DNA from: Candidatus Anderseniibacteriota bacterium
GTDB taxonomy: Bacteria > Patescibacteriota > Andersenbacteria > UBA10190
NCBI GenBank assembly: GCA_021414205.1
Contig: JAIOOW010000002.1
Location: 89,520-153,519, forward strand
DNA length: 64,000 nucleotides
Direction of reading: 5' to 3'
Each line of letters begins with the position of its first letter. Positions within the stretch are counted from its first letter, which is position 1. Below, piece by piece: positions 3,476 to 63,890 of this stretch. The notes under the pieces are model-generated. The model worked only from the letters and a program-made list of their open reading frames with translations. It was not told the origin of the DNA and ran no database searches. Both the position numbers and the translations under genes were made by a program.

Positions 3476-5935
3476 CTATTTTTCAACAACGGCGCCCACT
3501 AACGTGTCGCGCGCTTCATCCCCACGGTAAACGATAGAGGAATCTGAATCAAGAGTAACACCGGAATCTGGCGCATGATCAACAATCCTAAAGCCCTTCG
3601 GGAAGGCGATACTTGCAGATATTGTCGTCCTTTGCTGTCCGGGCTGTTTTACCAACGCAACCGAATATGAAGTAGCAGGATGCAATAGGCTCGGCATAAC
3701 AACTCCATGCGGAATCCTATAATGATACAGAGCAACCGATGTTTGCCCCGGCTTCGTGACCAGCCAATTTGCAAAATACGCATACCCAGATTCGCTGCCA
3801 ATAGTCGTCCCGTTTATCCCGCCATGCTGTTGCTGCTGCCAGTAGGCAATATCCGCATCCGCAGTTAGTTGCAACGTAGTATCTGGGACAAGGGGATGAG
3901 GAACGTCTTTTTCTTGCGTAAACCCTTGCGCATCAAGCAGTACTGCGTTTTTAGGAACAAGCACGCGCTGGTATATAACATTGTCTTTTTGAGACGGATC
4001 CTCTCCTGCTGGATAGGGATAATCAATCTTTTCATCAGGTCCGTGATGGGTTCTTCGAATCGTAGTAACTACATCCACATCTCCGTTTGCAAGTACTGTA
4101 TTGCGCGTGTCTATTTCCTGAGATACAAACTGATCGCTCTTGTGTCCTCCAATATTGGCATTATCGATCATTAAAAATCCTTGAGTATCTTGAGGGATTA
4201 CCCCAGACCAACCCAGATTTTCGACTTCTTGCTGCGCAGATTCGTTCTTGAAATACAGCAAGATATCTTTGTCTGATAGCGAATTCGTAATTGCCGTAAG
4301 AGTCGCCAAGCGATCGGCAGGCTTTGCAGTATCATCAGCTGAAGCAAATAATTTGGACAGCAATATTGGAGTTAGGTCTGCTAGAAACTGCTTTGGCTTA
4401 TTTACCAAATGATCATAATTATACGTAACCTCTCCTTGTGTAACAGTCACAAAATTATCAGCCGTCACATCTACATCGTACCCAGGAACATGGATAGGCC
4501 CAGTTACTGATAATAAATTTTTTATCACATCAGGTGTAAATAAAATCACTCCATCAACCGTAGGGCCGTTTTCCTGCTCCAAGAAGTCGCTGGCTTTTTG
4601 CGCATCCTTTTTATAATCAACAAACCAATTTGAATCCCTCAAATACCAACGATCCGTAATTGGGGTAAGAGGTTCTGGCGGCGCAATAACTGTTTTCAAT
4701 TGCCCATCTCTATCGTAAACGCTTTGCACATCAATATTTTCAACCTTGCCCTTTGAAACATTCACCACTGCCGTACTGCCGATAAACCCGCCCACTGGGC
4801 GCAATTCATCGTTGTTCGCAAACATAATCAGATACTGACGATCTCGATCTGCGCCCAATAACGTGAGCAACGTTCCGCTTTCGGAATTTAAATGATGAAT
4901 AACTGCGAGCAATTTCGGCAACACTGTTTTTAGCGTGATTACCTGGTCTGCTACCTGCTTGGGCAACATTCCCGTAGAAACACCTGCCAGCTGATCATTT
5001 GCAGACGATATATCTTGCTCCGCATTTGCAAGTTCCGGCTGTGCCAGCTTCATCGCATCGGTGAGTGATGTTCCCGTATTTGTTTTTCCAATCATCTGTA
5101 CCGCATTTGCAATATGCTCACCCGCAGAACTAATTTTTATACCGGCAGACAAAAGAGTGGATCCGGATTTAATAGAGCCCGTTACATCCAATACGCTTAA
5201 AATATTTTTATTGCTTGCAAGCGCGCTGTCCATTTCATGCTGAGCCGTTACAAACTCAACGCCAGCAGATGCAAACGAGAGTTTGCTCGCATCGCTGCCT
5301 GTATCCGCCAATGCAGATCCTGCTTTCGTCATATCAGCGATTGCATTTTTTACCCTGCTTTCAACCGATGCAAGCACCTGCATCCCGCGACCGGCTGCTT
5401 GCAGATTCCAAATTGCAAACGATAAAAACGTAAACCCGATAAGCAAGATGATAAGGCCTGGGGTTCGATGCGAAATATTCGGCATTGAGATGCGCGATAA
5501 GCTTGGCGACTTCATCACAGAAGACCTACTTGGCAGAGATACGCCACGATTCAACGACGCTCGAGTAAGACTCGGTGCGCTTTCTTTCAAATTTGCAGTA
5601 CCTGATGATTGAGGGAATCGATAATCGACATCTCGCTCCGCAATAGGCATGTTTCCGAATACCCCAACACTGGAAAATGTATTTTTTGCCTTCTCTTTAT
5701 TTTTTGCGATTATATCAAAGTGGCGCCCACTTGGTTTTCTTTGCCACTTCCCCTTGCTACTCGCACTATCTGCAAGCACATCTTTTTTCTTCCGATAATT
5801 ATATCGAAAAGGATCCGGAGTATCGTTGGGCGGAATGATATCGTACACACTCTCATTATAGCGCGTTCTCGTATGCCCGTATATGCGCCGCTGCCGTACT
5901 GCCTGCCTGAAAACGTTCCGCATTTTGCCGGCCAA
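3476..5935 (-). CDS. DUF4012-domain membrane-anchored protein (start uncertain; the N-terminal ~95 codons overlap the upstream GT gene)
   Basis: ELRPVGGFIGS hallmark motif of DUF4012; single TM (LIILLIGFTFLSFAIW); long Ser/Thr-rich ectodomain. Confidence 0.6.
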   Translation of the reverse strand: MAGKMRNVFRQAVRQRRIYGHTRTRYNESVYDIIPPNDTPDPFRYNYRKKKDVLADSASSKGKWQRKPSGRHFDIIAKNKEKAKNTFSSVGVFGNMPIAERDVDYRFPQSSGTANLKESAPSLTRASLNRGVSLPSRSSVMKSPSLSRISMPNISHRTPGLIILLIGFTFLSFAIWNLQAAGRGMQVLASVESRVKNAIADMTKAGSALADTGSDASKLSFASAGVEFVTAQHEMDSALASNKNILSVLDVTGSIKSGSTLLSAGIKISSAGEHIANAVQMIGKTNTGTSLTDAMKLAQPELANAEQDISSANDQLAGVSTGMLPKQVADQVITLKTVLPKLLAVIHHLNSESGTLLTLLGADRDRQYLIMFANNDELRPVGGFIGSTAVVNVSKGKVENIDVQSVYDRDGQLKTVIAPPEPLTPITDRWYLRDSNWFVDYKKDAQKASDFLEQENGPTVDGVILFTPDVIKNLLSVTGPIHVPGYDVDVTADNFVTVTQGEVTYNYDHLVNKPKQFLADLTPILLSKLFASADDTAKPADRLATLTAITNSLSDKDILLYFKNESAQQEVENLGWSGVIPQDTQGFLMIDNANIGGHKSDQFVSQEIDTRNTVLANGDVDVVTTIRRTHHGPDEKIDYPYPAGEDPSQKDNVIYQRVLVPKNAVLLDAQGFTQEKDVPHPLVPDTTLQLTADADIAYWQQQQHGGINGTTIGSESGYAYFANWLVTKPGQTSVALYHYRIPHGVVMPSLLHPATSYSVALVKQPGQQRTTISASIAFPKGFRIVDHAPDSGVTLDSDSSIVYRGDEARDTLVGAVVEK

Positions 5936-12218: not shown

Positions 12219-12551
12219 GCTGATGGATGGATAATCGCCCGTAACAGGGAGGAAAGTCCGGACACCACAAAAAGGGTGACAGGTAACGCCTGCCCCCTCG
12301 CCCTAAAAAGCAAGGGAGGGATAGTGCAACAGAAACATACAGCCCCTCCTCGGAGGAGCAATGGTGAAATCGTGAGGTAAGAGCTCACGCCCTGTATAGG
12401 TAACTATACAGGGGTGAAAACCCCACCTGGTGCAACCTCAAGTCGACCCGCCTTAAAACGGGTCAGGTAGAGGGCAAAGATTCTAGTAGCGATACTAGAA
12501 CAAGACAGATGATTATCTTCAATGACAGAATCCGGCTTACAGTCCATTAGC
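12219..12551 (+). ncRNA. rnpB: RNase P RNA, bacterial type A
   Basis: GGGAGGAAAGTCCGGACACCACA, GGTAACGCCTG, GTGAAATCGTGAGGTAAGAGCTCACGC and ACAGAATCCGGCTTACAG conserved blocks; P1 GCTGATGGA pairs with TCCATTAGC. Confidence 0.9.
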
Positions 12552-12560
12552 ATATATGCA

Positions 12561-60490: not shown

Positions 60491-61900
60491 TCAAACGCAT
60501 TTCGCATTACTCGAGCCATTCTTATCGTTCTCGTTATTTTCCTATTAACTGGCGCGGGCGTATTCGGATATAAAATTCTTTCTGCAAGCAATAGCATTAG
60601 TACTGCGAACCAAACAATCTTCGGACAACTTTCAGACCTCCTGTTTAAATCTGGTAACAAGCTAAAAGGAGAACAAGACGATCGAATCAACATCCTTCTT
60701 ATGGCAATTGGCGGAGATGGTCATGATGGACCGAACCTTAGCGACACCATCATGATCGCCAGCATTCAGCCAAAGGAAAAACGGATTGCTCTCCTCTCTC
60801 TTCCGCGCGACTTATACGTACAGGTACCAGGCCAGCAATTCTACTCAAAATTAAATGCAGTGAACGCATATGGAGAGGCAGCGAAACCTGGAAGCGGAGC
60901 TTCCTTGCTCGAACAAAAAGTGGAAGAGATTACCGGACTTAAAATGGACTACTATGCCCGAGTAGACTTTACGGCATTCAAAAAGATCGTAGATGCAGTT
61001 GGCGGTGTCAACATTAAAATTGATAATGGATTTTTTGACTACTGGCACAAAATCGCCTTCCCTGCAGGGACAGAAACAATGAATGGCGACAGAGCGCTTG
61101 CATATGTTCGAGCCAGGTACGTAGAAGGTCCTGAGGGAGGGGACTTCAAGCGCACGGCGCGACAACAGCAAGTCGTTCTTGCAATCCGCGATAAAGTATT
61201 CTCCGTATCAACTGCGCTTGATTTCAATGCGATCAGCGGAATTTTCTCGTCATTATCTGAAAACATCCGAACAGACATGCAAACATGGGAAATGAAGCGA
61301 TTCTTTGAATTGTTCCGGCAAATCGACCCTTCAAGCTACAAATCTGACGTCATGAGCACTGGCCCGAACGGCATCTTAAAAAGCGACACGGTAATGCTTG
61401 GCGGTGTTCCCGCATCTGTATTAAAAACCCGAACAGGAGATTTTTCAGAAATTAAAACATTAGCCCAAAACATGTTCTCGTCATCAACGGGAACGGATTT
61501 ATCTGCGAATCAAGCAGACACGTCAGTGCATAACATTGATGCAAACGGAGATATTATTCCAAGCATTTCTCCATCAGCATCGCCTACTCCAGATGCAAGC
61601 TCGACACCAGTATCCGCATCCGCAACGATCGAGGTTCGAAACGGAACAAGCACTTCGGGTCTTGCAGGAAAAACAGCAACGAAACTCAAGAGTCTCGGAT
61701 ATAAAGTTATTGCGACAGGTAACGCCGCATCAAAAACGATTACAAAAACAACAGTGTACTCTCCAAATGTCACTCAATCAGACAATGCTACAAAAATCGC
61801 ATCAAGCTTAAACGCATCATCTGCAACAGATATTCCATCTACCGAAGCAAAAACAAAAGCAGATATACTCGTTATCGTCGGATCAGACCAGGCGCAGTAA
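60446..61900 (+). CDS. LytR-CpsA-Psr (LCP) family cell-envelope glycopolymer transferase with C-terminal LytR_C-like domain
   Basis: ILLMAIGGDGHDGPNLSDTIMIASI, LLSLPRDLYV; true start may be an internal Met (60458 or 60467). Confidence 0.8.
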   Translation: MQYDMQDMEEPHKGHSNAFRITRAILIVLVIFLLTGAGVFGYKILSASNSISTANQTIFGQLSDLLFKSGNKLKGEQDDRINILLMAIGGDGHDGPNLSDTIMIASIQPKEKRIALLSLPRDLYVQVPGQQFYSKLNAVNAYGEAAKPGSGASLLEQKVEEITGLKMDYYARVDFTAFKKIVDAVGGVNIKIDNGFFDYWHKIAFPAGTETMNGDRALAYVRARYVEGPEGGDFKRTARQQQVVLAIRDKVFSVSTALDFNAISGIFSSLSENIRTDMQTWEMKRFFELFRQIDPSSYKSDVMSTGPNGILKSDTVMLGGVPASVLKTRTGDFSEIKTLAQNMFSSSTGTDLSANQADTSVHNIDANGDIIPSISPSASPTPDASSTPVSASATIEVRNGTSTSGLAGKTATKLKSLGYKVIATGNAASKTITKTTVYSPNVTQSDNATKIASSLNASSATDIPSTEAKTKADILVIVGSDQAQ

Positions 61901-62444
61901 TTGCTTCAGTTATCGCATCGAGCACGCCTTGCTTCTTGCTATCAAAAATCATTCGTTCTTGTTCCGTAAACTTTTCTAGTACAAAGACATCGATAGGCTT
62001 CTGATCCGCTGGCCTACCAATACCAATCCGCAATCTTGGAACTTCCAATGTTCCCAAATATTCATGAATGCTGCGGACGCCGTTATGGCCTTTCGCACTT
62101 CCAGATTCTTGCAACTTCACTTCGCTTAATGGTAATTCCAAATCGTCATGAACAATAAGAATATTCTTATGATCAACTTCGTTATATCGCAAATACTGCA
62201 TCACCGCTTTCCCGGATTCGTTCATAAAAACATCGGGATATAAAATAGTTATCTTTATATTATTAAAAACAACCTCTTGAATACGCGCATGCAACGATTC
62301 TTTCGATTGAACGACTTGCACATCTGCGCCCCTTTCTCTCGCCAACTCAACCCAGCTCAACACAATATCTTGACCAAGATTATGCCTCGTATTCTTAAAT
62401 TTTTCTCCAGGGTTTCCTAATGCAACAACTAAAACATGCTCCAT
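61872..62444 (-). CDS. pth: Peptidyl-tRNA hydrolase
   Basis: LVVALGNPGEKFKNTRHNLG. Confidence 0.9.
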   Translation of the reverse strand: MEHVLVVALGNPGEKFKNTRHNLGQDIVLSWVELARERGADVQVVQSKESLHARIQEVVFNNIKITILYPDVFMNESGKAVMQYLRYNEVDHKNILIVHDDLELPLSEVKLQESGSAKGHNGVRSIHEYLGTLEVPRLRIGIGRPADQKPIDVFVLEKFTEQERMIFDSKKQGVLDAITEAITAPGLIRR

Positions 62445-63016
62445 TACCCTATCGTACTATTGTCCGCAATGTTCCGCCAGCAAGGTATCTCCTGGAATCT
62501 AGGAGGGGGTGATTCCAGTGAAATATTCTTAACTGGCAGAACGCTAATGACAATAGTGAAAAGGACTCATAAATGTACCCTGAAACAGAAAAGTGTGTCA
62601 AAAGAAAAAGACCCGGAAGCGCAACACGTGCTGCGCCCCGGGCCCCCCTTACAAAGCGGCGAGCACCTTCCAAGGTACCCTGCGTTTGCCGCTTTGGAGC
62701 AGGAGCCGCTACTATAACACTTTATGTGAAATATGCAAGAAAAAACCCGAAGGAAACCGGAAGGTCTCAATCGGGCGAGTCTGAAACTCTGCGCAAGTTC
62801 GCGTAACGCATCAAGCGAACTTATAAAATGTGCACTCCTGCTCGGGTCGCTGGTCTCTTCTTCCATGAAGAGACGGATACGGTCAATGAGTCATGACGCA
62901 TTTCCTCCTCCAAAGAATTCGGCCTAGTAACGACGCCCTTTGTCAGAGAATGAATCTCCGACAATCCGATTTGGGGTCTCGAGAATTCCCAATCGAATAC
63001 TTAGAGTGTAATCCAT
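62445..63016. ncRNA. Candidate structured non-coding element of unknown class (strand undetermined)
   Basis: 570 nt with no credible ORF; locally GC-rich; several perfect hairpins and a long-range GGAGCAGGAG / CTCCTGCTC pairing. Confidence 0.3.
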
Positions 63017-63799
63017 TTATTCTTTTTCGTCAATACCTTTTGCAGACTCCCAAGCAAGGTCAAACAATGCTCGCATCATGTTTGCCATTTGTTCACTTTC
63101 AATGATTACACCAAACAATTTACCAGTAAACGATCCAATAGCAACCCTGTCTCGATAAATTGTCATACCTGCTGGGACAGGAAACTTATTATGGGGGACG
63201 TACCTTCGTTCTGTGTGTCGGCTGAACTCCTGAGATGACCAATATTTTCTCAATTGTTCAGAAGTCGTGGAAAATATCGTCTTACCCTTGATTCCCTTTG
63301 CAACGCGTTGCACATAATTCGTATGTTCATCATCAGGAAAAACTCCCACGAGATGGTCCGCAGGGGTAAAATTATATATCGTATCCTCTGGGCGCGAATA
63401 CATAACTAAATCTCTTCGAATTGCAGCCAAACCCTCTTTACCTTCGAAATATCTAACGGATGGCTTGTCGCCCAGCGCTTTTGTAAGCATCTGCAATTCT
63501 GGCAAAATTTGCTCTAAATCTTTTTGTCGCTGCTCAATAACCTCTTCTTCTTTTTCCAGTAAGCGCATCAACTGGCGCGGAGCTTCGGCAGAAAACATCG
63601 TTTTCTTGCCTTCCTTATATTTTGTGACCAAGCCCATAGCCATCAGCTCTTCTAAAATCACATAGGTAGTAGCCCTCACTACGTCAGCCTTTTTTGCTAT
63701 ATATTGAGCAGGAGAGGGTCCTAATTGCAGGCACGAAAGATACACGGATGCTTGCTTATCCTTAAGACCTAAGCTCATTAATTCTTGGATAAATTCCAT
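63017..63799 (-). CDS. TrmB-family sugar-responsive transcriptional regulator
   Basis: N-terminal wHTH (QASVYLSCLQLGPSPAQYIAKKADVVRATTYVILEELMAMGLV), TrmB-like C-terminal domain; start ATG 63797-63799. Confidence 0.6.
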   Translation of the reverse strand: MEFIQELMSLGLKDKQASVYLSCLQLGPSPAQYIAKKADVVRATTYVILEELMAMGLVTKYKEGKKTMFSAEAPRQLMRLLEKEEEVIEQRQKDLEQILPELQMLTKALGDKPSVRYFEGKEGLAAIRRDLVMYSRPEDTIYNFTPADHLVGVFPDDEHTNYVQRVAKGIKGKTIFSTTSEQLRKYWSSQEFSRHTERRYVPHNKFPVPAGMTIYRDRVAIGSFTGKLFGVIIESEQMANMMRALFDLAWESAKGIDEKE

Positions 63800-63866
63800 A
63801 GGGGGGTTGCTTGAAAACAGAATGTACAGTAACAATATAAGAATGTCAATCATAGACCTATCTCAA

Positions 63867-63890
63867 TTTTGTCAAAGTATTTTGACAAAA
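63867..63890. promoter_or_regulatory. Perfect palindromic operator TTTTGTCAAA-GTAT-TTTGACAAAA upstream of the TrmB-like gene
   Basis: 10-bp perfect inverted repeat with 4-bp spacer, 68 nt upstream of the regulator start. Confidence 0.5.

What the first reader, a model, noticed from the sequence alone, without database searches (positions are those of the whole stretch)
62445..63016. 570-nt GC-rich, hairpin-dense non-coding region between pth and the TrmB-like regulator
In a genome where divergent start codons sit only 18-27 nt apart, a 570-nt gap without a credible ORF stands out. It contains stretches far more GC-rich than the surrounding DNA (GCGCAACACGTGCTGCGCCCCGGGCCCCCC). Several perfect stems are present: CAAAGCGGC...GCCGCTTTG, AAGTTCGC-N12-GCGAACTT, and GTCTCTTC-N7-GAAGAGAC. 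There is a ~140-nt long-range GGAGCAGGAG/CTCCTGCTC pairing. The 5' end (GGGGGUGAUUCCAG) loosely resembles the tmRNA 5' consensus GGGGCUGAUUCUGG, but I could not find the matching 3' acceptor, T-arm or CCA. It could be a divergent tmRNA or other housekeeping RNA, a novel structured RNA or pth leader, or a degraded mobile element.
Basis: seen in the sequence. Interest (0 to 1): 0.6.

Follow-up and report, generated by a model that had tools for sequence, protein, structure and literature searches.

The report
Conserved non-coding RNA cluster upstream of pth
The 570-base gap is not a tmRNA but a conserved set of small non-coding RNA genes in an uncultured Andersenbacteria genome: one carries a strong ribosome-binding site and a three-codon reading frame, another forms the folded leader of pth, the gene for the enzyme that recycles tRNAs lost from ribosomes.

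Summary
In detail: 62445-63016 is non-coding, locally GC-rich and folds far better than shuffles. The relevant strand is the minus strand, because trmB-like and pth are tandem minus-strand genes.

The gap evolves about six times more slowly than neutral sites. The order mfd-trmB-gap-pth-lytR is kept in all 17 distinct related Andersenbacteria sequences. No Rfam family or ARAGORN tmRNA/tRNA matches, in the window or its relatives.

The gap holds three transcription units with consensus promoters and intrinsic terminators:
- **RNA-A** (~260 nt): hairpins, a canonical Shine-Dalgarno sequence, a start + 2 codons + stop mini-ORF and an invariant CANGGA hairpin. The mini-ORF has this length in 12 of 17 sequences, with differing codons and stops.
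- **RNA-B** (~105 nt): two hairpins, closest relatives only.
- **RNA-C**: the pth promoter plus a ~120-nt leader. It forms a 34-pair hairpin, 27 pairs with compensatory changes, capped by an invariant CCCCUCC anti-SD-like loop.

Real genes in this window essentially lack SD sequences.

My best reading, which is inferred, is a translated minigene RNA coupled to the pth leader that tunes Pth. Rivals are CsrA-type binding, uORF attenuation, or unrelated sRNAs. These are new RNA families of a known general kind.

The parts
63005..63033 (-). Promoter P_A of RNA-A: -35 TTGACG (63033-63028) inside the last codons of trmB, 17-nt spacer, -10 TACACT (63010-63005) just after the trmB stop codon
   Evidence: Promoter scan. 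The same geometry is seen in most of the 16 related loci listed: TTGAYN, about 17 nt, then (TG)nTATANT at the stop codon.
62737..62998 (-). RNA-A, a structured non-coding transcript of ~260 nt. The start near 62998 is inferred from the -10 box; the end lies in the U-tract of terminator T1.
   Evidence: Only ~4% different from L001 while 4-fold sites differ by 29-37%. The same hairpin order H1-H2-H3, SD, mini-ORF, H5, terminator is seen in 12 lineages.
62964..62998 (-). RNA-A hairpin H1 (AUUCGAUUGGG...CCCAAAUCGGAU)
   Evidence: MFE fold. A hairpin with a different sequence sits at the same place in relatives.
62942..62962 (-). RNA-A hairpin H2 (GUCGGAGA-UUCAU-UCUCUGAC)
   Evidence: Window versus L001: G-C to A-U, G-U to A-U, and two A-U to G-U changes all keep the pairing.
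62904..62911 (-). Shine-Dalgarno sequence GGAGGAGG of the mini-ORF
   Evidence: A G-rich SD is conserved in all 17 sequences; L072 has AAAGGAGGUG and L057 AAGGAGGU. Real genes in this window do not use GGAGG.
62883..62894 (-). Mini-ORF AUG ACU CAU UGA (M-T-H-stop), 9 nt after the SD
   Evidence: 12 of 17 sequences have start + 2 codons + stop, using different codons and all three stop codons. The other five have 5-11 codons.
62853..62874 (-). Hairpin H5: GUCUCUUC-AUGGAA-GAAGAGAC, carrying the invariant CANGGA loop motif
   Evidence: C, A, G, G, A are invariant columns in 12 sequences. The inner helix is 91.7% paired. It is the only such hairpin in the 64-kb window.
62795..62822 (-). RNA-A 3'-domain hairpin AAGUUCGC-N12-GCGAACUU
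   Evidence: Inverted repeat I17; MFE folds.
62737..62775 (-). Intrinsic terminator T1 (stem 62775-62746, U-tract 62745-62737)
   Evidence: Terminator scan; -16.6 kcal/mol. RNA-A ends in a terminator in all 12 aligned lineages, and the stem covaries.
62711..62738 (-). Promoter P_B: -35 TTGCAT, 13-nt spacer to the TG, extended -10 TGTTATAGT (16 nt between the hexamers)
   Evidence: Read from the sequence, coordinates. Also present in L001, L058 and L062.
62600..62704 (-). RNA-B, ~105 nt: hairpin B1 (62696-62652, apical UUGGAAG loop) followed by the strong terminator T2 (62648-62600)
   Evidence: Terminator scan; T2 is -30.8 kcal/mol. The window and L062 share the two-hairpin shape with different stem sequences. 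RNA-B is absent from the more distant lineages.
62572..62601 (-). Promoter P_C of the pth leader: TTGACA, 18 nt, TACATT
   Evidence: Promoter scan, 10 of 12 matches. TTGACA-N17/18-TAC(A/G)(G/T)T is readable in nearly all the related lineages shown.
62445..62565 (-). RNA-C, the 5' leader of pth, with a three-helix hairpin at 62557-62456
   Evidence: 34 consensus pairs, 27 with compensatory changes. 89.6% of cells are paired versus 33-48% when the 3' partners are slid. The covariance model scores 119.7 bits on the minus strand and 31.5 on the plus strand.
62500..62511 (-). Apical loop CACCCCCUCCUA with the invariant CCCCUCC (anti-Shine-Dalgarno-like)
   Evidence: CCCCTCC occurs once in every related IGR examined except L070, which has two. 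It sits 64-65 nt before the pth ATG in the main group. Its columns are invariant.
62451..62456 (-). -10-like hexamer TACGAT 6 nt upstream of the pth ATG, a possible second promoter giving a leaderless pth mRNA
Evidence: TACGAT, TAGGAT or TACAAT lies 6-7 nt before the ATG in most lineages.

Best explanation
**What is there.** The gap holds a tandem cluster of minus-strand non-coding RNA genes that is specific to Candidatus Andersenbacteria.

- **RNA-A** has its own promoter, which overlaps the trmB stop codon, and its own intrinsic terminator. It is a multi-hairpin RNA. Its centre is a canonical Shine-Dalgarno sequence, then an AUG, two sense codons and a stop (a 'minigene'). A hairpin with an invariant CANGGA loop follows 8-25 nt later.
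- **RNA-B** occurs only in the window's closest relatives. It is a promoter, a GGA-loop hairpin and a strong terminator.
- **RNA-C** is transcribed from a consensus promoter and runs into pth. It forms a 34-bp hairpin that ends about 11 nt before the pth AUG. Its apical loop carries an invariant CCCCUCC that mimics the anti-SD tail of 16S rRNA.

**How I think it works.** Ribosomes load on RNA-A's SD and translate the mini-ORF. This is one of very few strong SD-AUG sites in a genome whose genes do not use SD. Such minigenes are known to release peptidyl-tRNA, which is the substrate of Pth. The C-rich loop of the pth leader can pair with RNA-A's G-rich SD. How much RNA-A is free of ribosomes would then set how much pairs with the pth leader, and so how well the structured pth mRNA is expressed. 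The result would be a feedback loop that ties Pth supply to translation and drop-off status.

**What is shown and what is inferred.**
- Shown: the conservation, the RNA-C structure, the retention of the SD, mini-ORF and CANGGA hairpin, the consensus promoter and terminator matches, and the absence of any known family.
- Inferred: that the units are transcribed, that the mini-ORF is translated, that RNA-A pairs with RNA-C, and the direction of the effect on pth.
For: **Constraint.**
- The IGR differs from L001 at 33 of 572 positions (5.8%), while 4-fold degenerate sites of pth and trmB differ by 29% and 37%.
- Most of these differences fall in loops or keep the pairing in local hairpins.

**Synteny.**
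- All loci with the orthologous TrmB-like gene show mfd-trmB-IGR(343-865 nt)-pth-lytR. They come from independent samples, with pth identity down to 42%.
- Outside this clade the gap upstream of pth is usually under 150 nt.

**Strand.**
- The minus strand folds at z = -11.3 versus -6.1 for the plus strand.
- Model R1 scores 119.7 versus 31.5 bits.
- U-G pairs are seen only in the minus-strand sense.

**RNA-C.**
- 34 pairs, 27 with compensatory changes; 0 of 500 shuffles reach the observed values.
- CCCCUCC is invariant.

**Transcription signals.** Two terminators and the promoters are found by the scan. P_A and P_C are conserved in position across lineages.

**Mini-ORF.**
- 12 of 17 sequences have exactly start + 2 codons + stop, in 11 different nucleotide versions that use UAA, UAG and UGA. 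The rest have at most 11 codons.
- Window and L058 differ strongly in this ~35-nt patch, yet both keep an SD, an AUG, two codons and UGA.
- The single window/L001 change inside the mini-ORF is synonymous. The three changes in the overlapping 26-codon frame are all non-synonymous.

**SD usage.** The SD is canonical in deep lineages (AAAGGAGGUG in L072), although 0 real genes in the 64-kb window have a GGAGG SD.

**Pairing potential.** The SD site is among the three best duplex sites for the RNA-C loop in every lineage tested, at -9 to -15 kcal/mol.

**Link of minigenes to Pth.** Toxic minigenes act by sequestering tRNA as accumulated peptidyl-tRNA (PMC2490762 abstract), and Pth hydrolyses accumulated peptidyl-tRNA to relieve tRNA starvation (PMC5238795 abstract); both abstracts are. 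Natural regulatory minigenes are documented (PMC8708949, PMC3262186).
Against: - There are no expression data. Transcription starts, translation of the mini-ORF and any RNA-RNA contact are all inferred from sequence.
- The loop is invariant, so the SD:loop pairing cannot be tested by covariation. RNA-A contains several other G-runs that pair with the loop equally well or better.
- L073 keeps the SD, mini-ORF and GGA hairpin but has no CCCCUCC hairpin. The proposed pairing is therefore not universal.
- In L057, L070 and L072 RNA-C is followed by a U-tract or a terminator. There it looks like a stand-alone sRNA rather than a pth leader.
- A conserved -10-like hexamer 6-7 nt before the pth ATG could give a leaderless pth mRNA that bypasses RNA-C.
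- Three deep lineages have mini-ORFs of 8-11 codons.
- Adjacency to pth could be inherited synteny without any functional link.
Confidence: 0.35

Rival explanations
1. RNA-A and RNA-B are ligands or targets of a CsrA/Rsm-type RNA-binding protein. The protein would bind the invariant CANGGA hairpin loop and the GGA inside the SD, and so control ribosome access to the mini-ORF or be titrated by these RNAs. Under this reading the link to pth is indirect or absent.
For: - The H5 loop and closing bases read UCA(A/C/U)GGA(U/A)G in 12 lineages. This fits the RsmE/CsrA consensus A/U-CANGGANG-U/A and resembles the hcnA hairpin CUUC-ACGGAU-GAAG; both comparisons are recalled from memory.
- Every SD contains GGA about 45-50 nt upstream.
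- RNA-B carries a UUGGA(A/G)G loop hairpin followed by a terminator, like small Rsm RNAs.
- Deep lineages and L073 also have an ANGGA loop hairpin after the mini-ORF.
- csrA transcripts are reported among highly expressed genes of ultra-small groundwater prokaryotes (PMC9938205).
Against: - GGA is only about 1.4-fold enriched, and only 1-3 GGA per RNA are unpaired in the MFE fold. This is unlike CsrB or RsmZ.
- No csrA is detectable in the 64-kb window by tblastn. Its presence in Andersenbacteria could not be checked.
- This reading does not explain why the ORF length and stop codon are retained.
Confidence: 0.2
2. RNA-A is a classical ribosome-dependent transcription attenuator of pth. Ribosome stalling or slow termination on the mini-ORF would remodel the leader so that the terminator is read through, for example under translation stress or with drugs that promote drop-off. 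This would add transcripts to those from the basal pth promoter.
For: - The layout promoter, SD, tiny uORF, intrinsic terminator lies directly upstream of the gene in every lineage.
- In L073 the unit ends in a U-tract only about 20 nt before the pth ATG, with no CCCCUCC hairpin in between.
- The mini-ORF stop lies 5-8 nt before H5 in the window and L067. By the usual ribosome footprint, a terminating ribosome would melt the base of H5 (inference coordinates).
Against: - I could not identify a conserved antiterminator alternative to the terminator stem.
- The mini-ORF is 170-300 nt from the terminator.
- A consensus promoter (P_C) is conserved between the terminator and pth.
- In the window lineage, read-through would have to pass two terminators, the second at -30.8 kcal/mol.
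Confidence: 0.15
3. RNA-A, RNA-B and RNA-C are lineage-specific small RNAs with targets elsewhere in the genome. For example, RNA-C could be a RoxS/RsaE-like C-rich-loop sRNA that masks G-rich sites. Their position next to pth would then be inherited synteny only.
For: - Each unit has its own promoter and, in deep lineages, its own terminator.
- RNA-C is a stand-alone unit in L057, L070 and L072.
- A weak RNA-C-like hairpin with a CCCCUCC loop lies on the opposite strand, downstream of pth, in an unrelated MAG (L029, 26 bits, E 0.0013).
Against: - Adjacency to pth holds in all 17 sequences, down to 42% pth identity, while the RNA sequences themselves have diverged beyond blastn recognition.
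- In the main group RNA-C has no terminator and ends about 11 nt before the pth AUG.
Confidence: 0.2
4. The region encodes a highly divergent housekeeping RNA (tmRNA, SRP RNA or 6S RNA) that the standard models miss.
For: The sizes are suggestive: RNA-A is ~260-330 nt and has an mRNA-like piece, and RNA-C is a ~100-nt hairpin with a conserved apical loop. RNase P RNA from the same window is detected normally, so it is not the missing RNA.
Against: - ARAGORN finds no tmRNA.
- Rfam gives no hit at gathering or at E up to 10 in the window gap, and none in 17 related loci.
- By reading the sequence I found no acceptor stem, T-arm or CCA. The ORF has an SD and an AUG, which tmRNA tags lack.
- The apical loop is CCCCUCC, not a GNRA tetraloop with SRP domain IV loops.
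Confidence: 0.03
5. The gap holds a small protein gene, or is the remnant of a mobile element or pseudogene.
For: Gene callers predicted a 77-aa antisense ORF in L058/L059 and 42-70-aa ORFs in L062/L064.
Against: - None of the five ORFs tested in the gap matches Pfam.
- The 77-aa ORF is frameshifted in L001 and diverges in L062.
- The 20-27-codon sense frame is not conserved as a peptide and took 3 of 3 non-synonymous changes between the window and L001.
- The sequence is single-copy in the window.
- Strong purifying selection together with covarying stems is the signature of an RNA.
Confidence: 0.02

Closest known systems
Minigenes (phage lambda bar; regulatory minigenes in axe-txe and in the EHEC LEE1 leader)
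   Same: A strong SD, an AUG, 1-5 sense codons and a stop. Such units are known to release peptidyl-tRNA and to depend on Pth (lambda bar from my own knowledge; PMC2490762). Some natural ones modulate a neighbouring gene (PMC8708949, PMC3262186).
   Different: Here the minigene sits in its own ~260-nt structured RNA with its own promoter and terminator. It is conserved across a whole bacterial lineage and lies next to pth itself. No toxicity or regulation has been tested.
Leader-peptide transcription attenuators (trpL, ermCL, ABCF-gene leaders)
   Same: A promoter, an SD-led short ORF, hairpins and an intrinsic terminator upstream of the controlled gene.
   Different: The ORF has only three codons. 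No antiterminator or anti-antiterminator could be identified. A conserved promoter separates the terminator from pth, and the window has two terminators in series.
C-rich-loop sRNAs of Firmicutes (RsaE/RoxS) and anti-SD sequestering leaders
   Same: An unpaired C-rich motif (CCCCUCC) presented in a hairpin loop and able to pair with G-rich SD sequences. The properties of RsaE/RoxS are from my own knowledge.
   Different: There is a single C-rich loop on a 34-bp hairpin, no sequence or Rfam similarity, and fusion to the pth mRNA in most lineages. The host genome hardly uses SD sequences, so the potential targets are few.
CsrA/RsmE-binding hairpins (hcnA leader, RsmZ/RsmY/CsrB)
   Same: An ANGGA hexaloop on a short stem with the flanks UCA-N-GGA-N-G, plus a second GGA overlapping an SD.
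   Different: Only one invariant GGA hairpin per RNA, with no array of GGA sites. CsrA is not demonstrated in this lineage.

Membership tests
tmRNA (ssrA) | tRNA-like domain: paired 5'/3' acceptor stem, T-arm and 3' CCA, detectable by ARAGORN or Rfam | tested here: not met
   ARAGORN found 0 genes in the window. There is no tmRNA hit in Rfam at gathering or at E up to 10, and none in 17 related loci.
tmRNA (ssrA) | Tag reading frame entered without an SD or AUG at a resume codon | tested here: not met
   The conserved ORF has a canonical SD and an AUG or GUG start, and is mostly 3 codons long.
Bacterial small SRP RNA / 6S RNA | Match to the Rfam covariance models (domain IV loops and GNRA tetraloop; or central bubble) | tested here: not met
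   No hits at permissive thresholds in the window or in relatives. The apical loop of RNA-C is CCCCUCC.
Regulatory or toxic minigene | SD at functional spacing, a start codon, at most about 5 sense codons, and an in-frame stop | tested here: met
   GGAGGAGG, 9 nt, then AUG ACU CAU UGA at 62894-62883. 14 of 17 related sequences have 3-5 codons.
Regulatory or toxic minigene | Translation produces peptidyl-tRNA drop-off, with a phenotype that depends on Pth | not testable with these tools
   This needs expression in a pth-deficient host or in vitro translation.
Leader-peptide transcription attenuator | uORF followed by an intrinsic terminator upstream of the regulated gene | tested here: met
Leader-peptide transcription attenuator | Mutually exclusive antiterminator structure coupled to ribosome position on the uORF | tested here: inconclusive
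   No conserved alternative pairing with the terminator stem was seen in MFE folds or in RNAalifold. I did not run a dedicated search.
Leader-peptide transcription attenuator | The regulated gene depends on read-through and has no promoter of its own after the terminator | tested here: not met
   A consensus promoter TTGACA-N17/18-TACAGT is conserved between the terminator and pth.
CsrB/RsmZ-type sponge RNA | Many GGA motifs, mostly in hairpin loops | tested here: not met
   5-12 GGA per RNA against 4-9 expected, and only 1-3 are unpaired in the MFE fold.
CsrA-controlled translation initiation region | A GGA in a hairpin loop plus a GGA overlapping the SD, within reach of one CsrA dimer | tested here: met
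   Invariant CANGGA hairpin and SDs that contain GGA. This is a sequence pattern only.
CsrA-controlled translation initiation region | The organism encodes CsrA | not testable with these tools
   Only 64 kb of the genome is available. tblastn with E. coli and B. subtilis CsrA found nothing in it.
RsaE/RoxS C-rich sRNA | Homology to the Rfam family and several C-rich unpaired motifs | tested here: not met
   No Rfam hit, and a single C-rich loop per RNA.

The most novel reading that the evidence does not exclude
RNA-A is a natural, chromosomally conserved minigene that the cell uses as a built-in reporter of peptidyl-tRNA drop-off or Pth sufficiency. Ribosome occupancy or stalling on the three-codon ORF would gate RNA-A's pairing with the anti-SD-mimic loop of the pth leader, or read-through into it. 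Pth synthesis would then be feedback-controlled by its own substrate load. This would be the first dedicated regulatory circuit described for pth, and a physiological role for a minigene.
Probability: 0.2. Interest if true: 0.85.

Novelty: new variant of a known kind. Interest (0 to 1): 0.6.

Why it matters
- **Regulation of pth.** Pth is essential in bacteria, yet I know of no described mechanism that regulates its expression (own knowledge). Minigenes have so far been studied mainly as toxic curiosities of phage lambda or as engineered constructs.
- **A testable link.** This lineage keeps an SD-led three-codon ORF RNA and an anti-SD-like leader hairpin next to pth, in a genome that otherwise dispenses with SD sequences. 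That gives a concrete hypothesis connecting minigene translation, peptidyl-tRNA drop-off and Pth supply.
- **New RNA families.** Whatever the mechanism, the work defines at least two RNA families absent from Rfam, in Patescibacteria, a group with very few described regulatory RNAs. RNA-C is strongly supported by covariation. RNA-A is supported by conserved architecture.
- **Annotation.** Gene callers have placed spurious ORFs in this gap, and that can be corrected.

Tried and rejected
- **tmRNA, tRNA and Rfam families.** ARAGORN and Rfam found nothing relevant, at gathering or permissive thresholds, in the window or in relatives. The only window hit is RNase P RNA elsewhere. The ctRNA_p42d hit (20 bits) is simply terminator T2. 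The Ysr141 hits lie inside mfd coding sequence.
- **Protein coding.** Pfam found nothing on the five gap ORFs tested. Antisense and long sense frames are not conserved.
- **Repeat or mobile element.** There is no second copy in the window.
- **Whole-gap alignment.** Alignment across distant lineages fails outside the leader. I worked module by module instead.
- **CsrB-like sponge.** GGA counts are too low.
- **General CANGGA regulatory hairpin.** There is only one in 64 kb, against 1.5 expected by chance.
- **SD:loop co-variation.** It cannot be tested because the loop is invariant, and several G-runs compete for it.
- **A long-range helix closing RNA-A (CACUCU/AGGAGUG).** Rejected, because the 5' arm overlaps the -10 box and so lies upstream of the inferred start.
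- **The mfd 'GGGAGGAG' as another SD.** It lies inside the mfd reading frame once the conserved upstream ATG is used.
- **The same architecture upstream of pth in about 50 other bacterial lineages.** Not found.
- **Literature.** Three full-text searches turned up no described pth leader or Andersenbacteria RNA.
Full report
**1.

- pth occupies 62444..61872 and the TrmB-like gene 63853..63017. Both are on the minus strand. The 572-nt gap therefore runs from the trmB stop to the pth start and is not a divergent promoter region.
- None of the five ORFs tested in the gap matches Pfam.
- GC reaches 0.61 at 62600-62699, against roughly 0.34-0.50 in the flanking genes.
- The minus strand folds to -234.6 kcal/mol (z = -11.3). 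The plus strand folds to -192.8 kcal/mol (z = -6.1).

**2. It is not a known RNA.**

- Rfam at gathering thresholds finds only RNase P RNA, at 12219-12555.
- A permissive Rfam scan of the gap returns only a 20-bit ctRNA match, which is simply a terminator.
- ARAGORN finds no tRNA or tmRNA.
- Seventeen related loci also give no Rfam family. Permissive scans of eight of them give nothing inside the gap.

**3. The source and its relatives.**

- The TrmB-like protein is identical to a hypothetical protein of a Candidatus Andersenbacteria MAG.
- Through pth, the TrmB-like protein and exact-protein look-ups I collected the homologous locus from 17 distinct sequences in independent samples.
- Where the flanks are held, the order is mfd, trmB, a gap of 343-865 nt, pth, lytR; every locus has trmB, the gap and pth. 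pth identity goes down to 42%.
- In about 50 pth loci from other phyla the upstream gap is usually under 150 nt.

**4. The gap is under strong selection.**

- Against L001, pth and trmB differ at 29% and 37% of 4-fold degenerate sites.
- The gap differs at only 33 of 572 positions. Most differences lie in loops or keep the pairing, for example G-C to A-U in hairpin H2.
- The sequence is single-copy in the window.
- The 77-aa plus-strand ORF is frameshifted in L001 and diverges in L062.
- A protein gene, a pseudogene and a mobile-element remnant are therefore excluded.

**5. Anatomy on the minus strand (coordinates).**

- **P_A.** This promoter has its -35 TTGACG inside the last trmB codons and its -10 TACACT just after the stop. 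The geometry is kept in most of the related lineages listed, usually as an extended -10 TGTTATANT.
- **RNA-A (~62998-62737).** It comprises:
  - hairpins H1 to H3;
  - the SD GGAGGAGG (62911-62904);
  - an out-of-frame AUG;
  - the mini-ORF AUG ACU CAU UGA (62894-62883);
  - hairpin H5, GUCUCUUC-AUGGAA-GAAGAGAC (62874-62853);
  - further hairpins;
  - terminator T1 (62775-62737).
- **P_B and RNA-B.** P_B is TTGCAT followed by TGTTATAGT. RNA-B (~62704-62600) is a GGA-loop hairpin plus the very strong terminator T2. It occurs only in the window's closest relatives. L062 has the same shape with different stem sequences.
- **P_C.** This promoter reads TTGACA-18-TACATT (62601-62572) and is readable in nearly all the related lineages shown.
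- **RNA-C.** The ~120-nt pth leader runs into the pth ATG at 62444.

**6. RNA-C is a real structured RNA.**

- Sixteen sequences give a 34-pair, three-helix hairpin.
- 27 pairs show compensatory changes and 89.6% of cells are paired. The figure is 33-48% when the 3' partners are slid. None of 500 shuffles reaches the observed values.
- A covariance model scores 119.7 bits on the minus strand and 31.5 on the plus strand.
- The model finds nothing in the other phyla except one weak hit in L029.
- The apical loop carries an invariant CCCCUCC, at a fixed 64-65 nt before the pth ATG in the main group. It resembles the anti-SD tail of 16S rRNA.
- In L057, L070 and L072 the hairpin is followed by a U-tract or a terminator, so there it looks like a stand-alone sRNA.
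- L073 lacks the hairpin altogether.

**7. RNA-A carries a conserved minigene.**

- The RNA-A sequences of distant lineages cannot be aligned by blastn. The module order is nevertheless the same.
- The core is a G-rich SD, which is a perfect AAAGGAGGUG in L072, followed 6-10 nt later by a start codon.
- In 12 of 17 sequences that start is followed by exactly two sense codons and a stop. The versions are MTH, MIK, MGG, MGT, MSK, VSG and MTN, and UAA, UAG and UGA are all used. Two sequences have 5 codons and three have 8-11.
- By my own estimate, without selection a stop at exactly the fourth codon has a probability of about 0.045 per lineage.
- Window and L058 are about 97% identical around this site, yet they differ heavily in a ~35-nt patch. 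Both still keep the SD, the AUG, two codons and UGA.
- The overlapping 20-27-codon frame is not conserved as a peptide. It took three non-synonymous changes between the window and L001.
- Downstream, C-A-N-G-G-A is invariant in the loop of H5. The inner helix of H5 is 91.7% paired, but its covariation is modest.
- H5 is the only such hairpin in the 64-kb window.

**8. Genome context: almost no SD use.**

- Only 8 of 63 likely genes have even a loose SD match.
- No real gene has GGAGG at SD spacing.
- Several starts appear to have a -10-like box a few bases upstream, or a YCCU-AUG context, by my reading of the list.
- A conserved canonical SD-AUG is therefore exceptional in this genome.

**9. 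Mechanism.**

- *Shown:*
  - separately promoted, terminated units, as judged from consensus matches only;
  - a covariation-supported leader hairpin;
  - selection for an SD-led three-codon ORF and a CANGGA hairpin;
  - constant adjacency to pth.
- *From the literature and my own knowledge:*
  - toxic minigenes sequester tRNA as peptidyl-tRNA (PMC2490762 abstract);
  - Pth clears accumulated peptidyl-tRNA and so relieves tRNA starvation (PMC5238795 abstract);
  - that SD-led ORFs of a few codons release peptidyl-tRNA and harm cells with too little Pth is my own knowledge;
  - natural minigenes can regulate neighbouring genes (PMC8708949, PMC3262186).
- *Inferred:*
  - RNA-A is translated at the mini-ORF;
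  - its SD can pair with the CCCCUCC loop of the pth leader. The SD site is among the three best duplex sites in every lineage tested;
  - ribosome occupancy of RNA-A could thereby be coupled to expression of the structured pth mRNA.
- I put the anatomy at about 0.85 and this functional coupling at about 0.35.

**10. Rivals.**

- **CsrA-type binding (0.2).** H5 and the GGA within the SD fit the RsmE/CsrA consensus, as I recall it. RNA-B resembles a small Rsm RNA. Against this, GGA is only about 1.4-fold enriched and CsrA could not be checked. PMC9938205 reports csrA among highly expressed genes of ultra-small groundwater prokaryotes.
- **Classical uORF attenuation of pth (0.15).** The layout favours it, especially in L073. 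Against it stand the conserved P_C promoter, the lack of a recognisable antiterminator, and two terminators in series in the window.
- **Unrelated sRNAs kept near pth by synteny (0.2).**
- **A divergent housekeeping RNA (0.03), or a protein gene or mobile remnant (0.02).** Both are effectively excluded.

**11. Novelty and limits.**

- RNA-A, RNA-B and RNA-C have no Rfam counterpart, and I found no publication describing them.
- In kind they belong to known classes: leader hairpins, uORF/minigene RNAs and C-rich-loop RNAs. The combination and its placement at pth are new.
- All functional statements rest on comparative sequence analysis of metagenome-assembled genomes. No transcript, translation or binding data were available.

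Noticed in passing
window 12219-12555 (+): Bacterial RNase P class A RNA at 230 bits. It is the only Rfam family found in the window.
   Followed up: no
window, all gene starts (one search list): Genes in this window essentially lack Shine-Dalgarno sequences: 8 of 63 have a loose match and none has GGAGG. Several starts appear to follow a TATAAT-like box by 6-7 nt, which looks leaderless, or sit in a YCCU-AUG context, notably in the ribosomal-protein cluster around 30-41 kb.
   Followed up: partly
window 63868-63889: A perfect palindrome TTTGTCAAA-GTAT-TTTGACAAA lies upstream of the trmB promoter. It is conserved in L001, L058 and L062 and recognisable in L002 and L064. It is probably the operator of the TrmB-like regulator, suggesting autoregulation.
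   Followed up: no
window 63799 versus 63853 (-): The TrmB-like ORF probably starts at the ATG at 63799 (MEFIQELMSLG...), as in all relatives. The mechanically longest start at 63853 is probably not used. The promoter TTGACA-N17-TACATT lies just upstream of 63799.
   Followed up: partly
window 62451-62456 (-) and homologous positions: A conserved -10-like hexamer (TACGAT, TAGGAT or TACAAT) lies 6-7 nt before the pth ATG, with a TG extension in L056, L067 and L068. pth may therefore also be made as a leaderless mRNA that bypasses the RNA-C leader.
   Followed up: partly
window 62883-62918 (-) versus L058 3381-3420: A ~35-nt hypervariable patch covers the two AUGs and the mini-ORF, inside an otherwise ~97% identical RNA-A. 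It looks like a cassette replacement that preserves the SD, an AUG, two codons and UGA.
   Followed up: partly
L062 keeps only GCAGG/CCUGC. A single 9-mer pair in 572 nt is within chance expectation.
   Followed up: partly
L029 4693-4812 (-): A weak RNA-C-like hit (26 bits, E 0.0013) in an unrelated MAG. It is a long hairpin with a GCGCCCCUCCAA apical loop, about 110 nt downstream of pth on the opposite strand. About five TAACGTT repeats lie next to it at roughly 4650-4700.
   Followed up: partly
L073 1254-1596: A divergent lineage (TrmB 56% identical) with a 343-nt gap. It keeps the SD, a 3-codon ORF (MTN) and a CAGGAC hairpin but has no CCCCUCC hairpin. A different long hairpin and a U-tract end about 20 nt before pth. 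A second SD-led 9-codon ORF lies just upstream.
   Followed up: partly
L070 3272-3967, about 3714-3740: A second CCCCUCC-containing hairpin (AAUCACCCCUCCUCGGAGGGA) lies inside the long 3' domain of RNA-A in this lineage.
   Followed up: no
trmB 5' UTRs, window about 63800-63825 (-): The trmB translation start region (CAAGCAACCCCCCU-AUGGAA) resembles both the RNA-C loop (AAUCAACCCCUCCUAU) and the 5' strand plus loop of H5 (CCCUCUC-AAGGAA). These three pyrimidine-rich elements may share a binding partner.
   Followed up: no
window 61872-61900: The pth and lytR-family genes converge and their 3' ends overlap by 29 nt. The same overlap is called in most related loci.
   Followed up: no
L060, L064, L067, L069, L057, about 900-1500: Sub-threshold Rfam Ysr141 matches (16-36 bits) fall inside the mfd coding sequence. 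They are probably an artefact of a model built over a protein-coding region.
   Followed up: no
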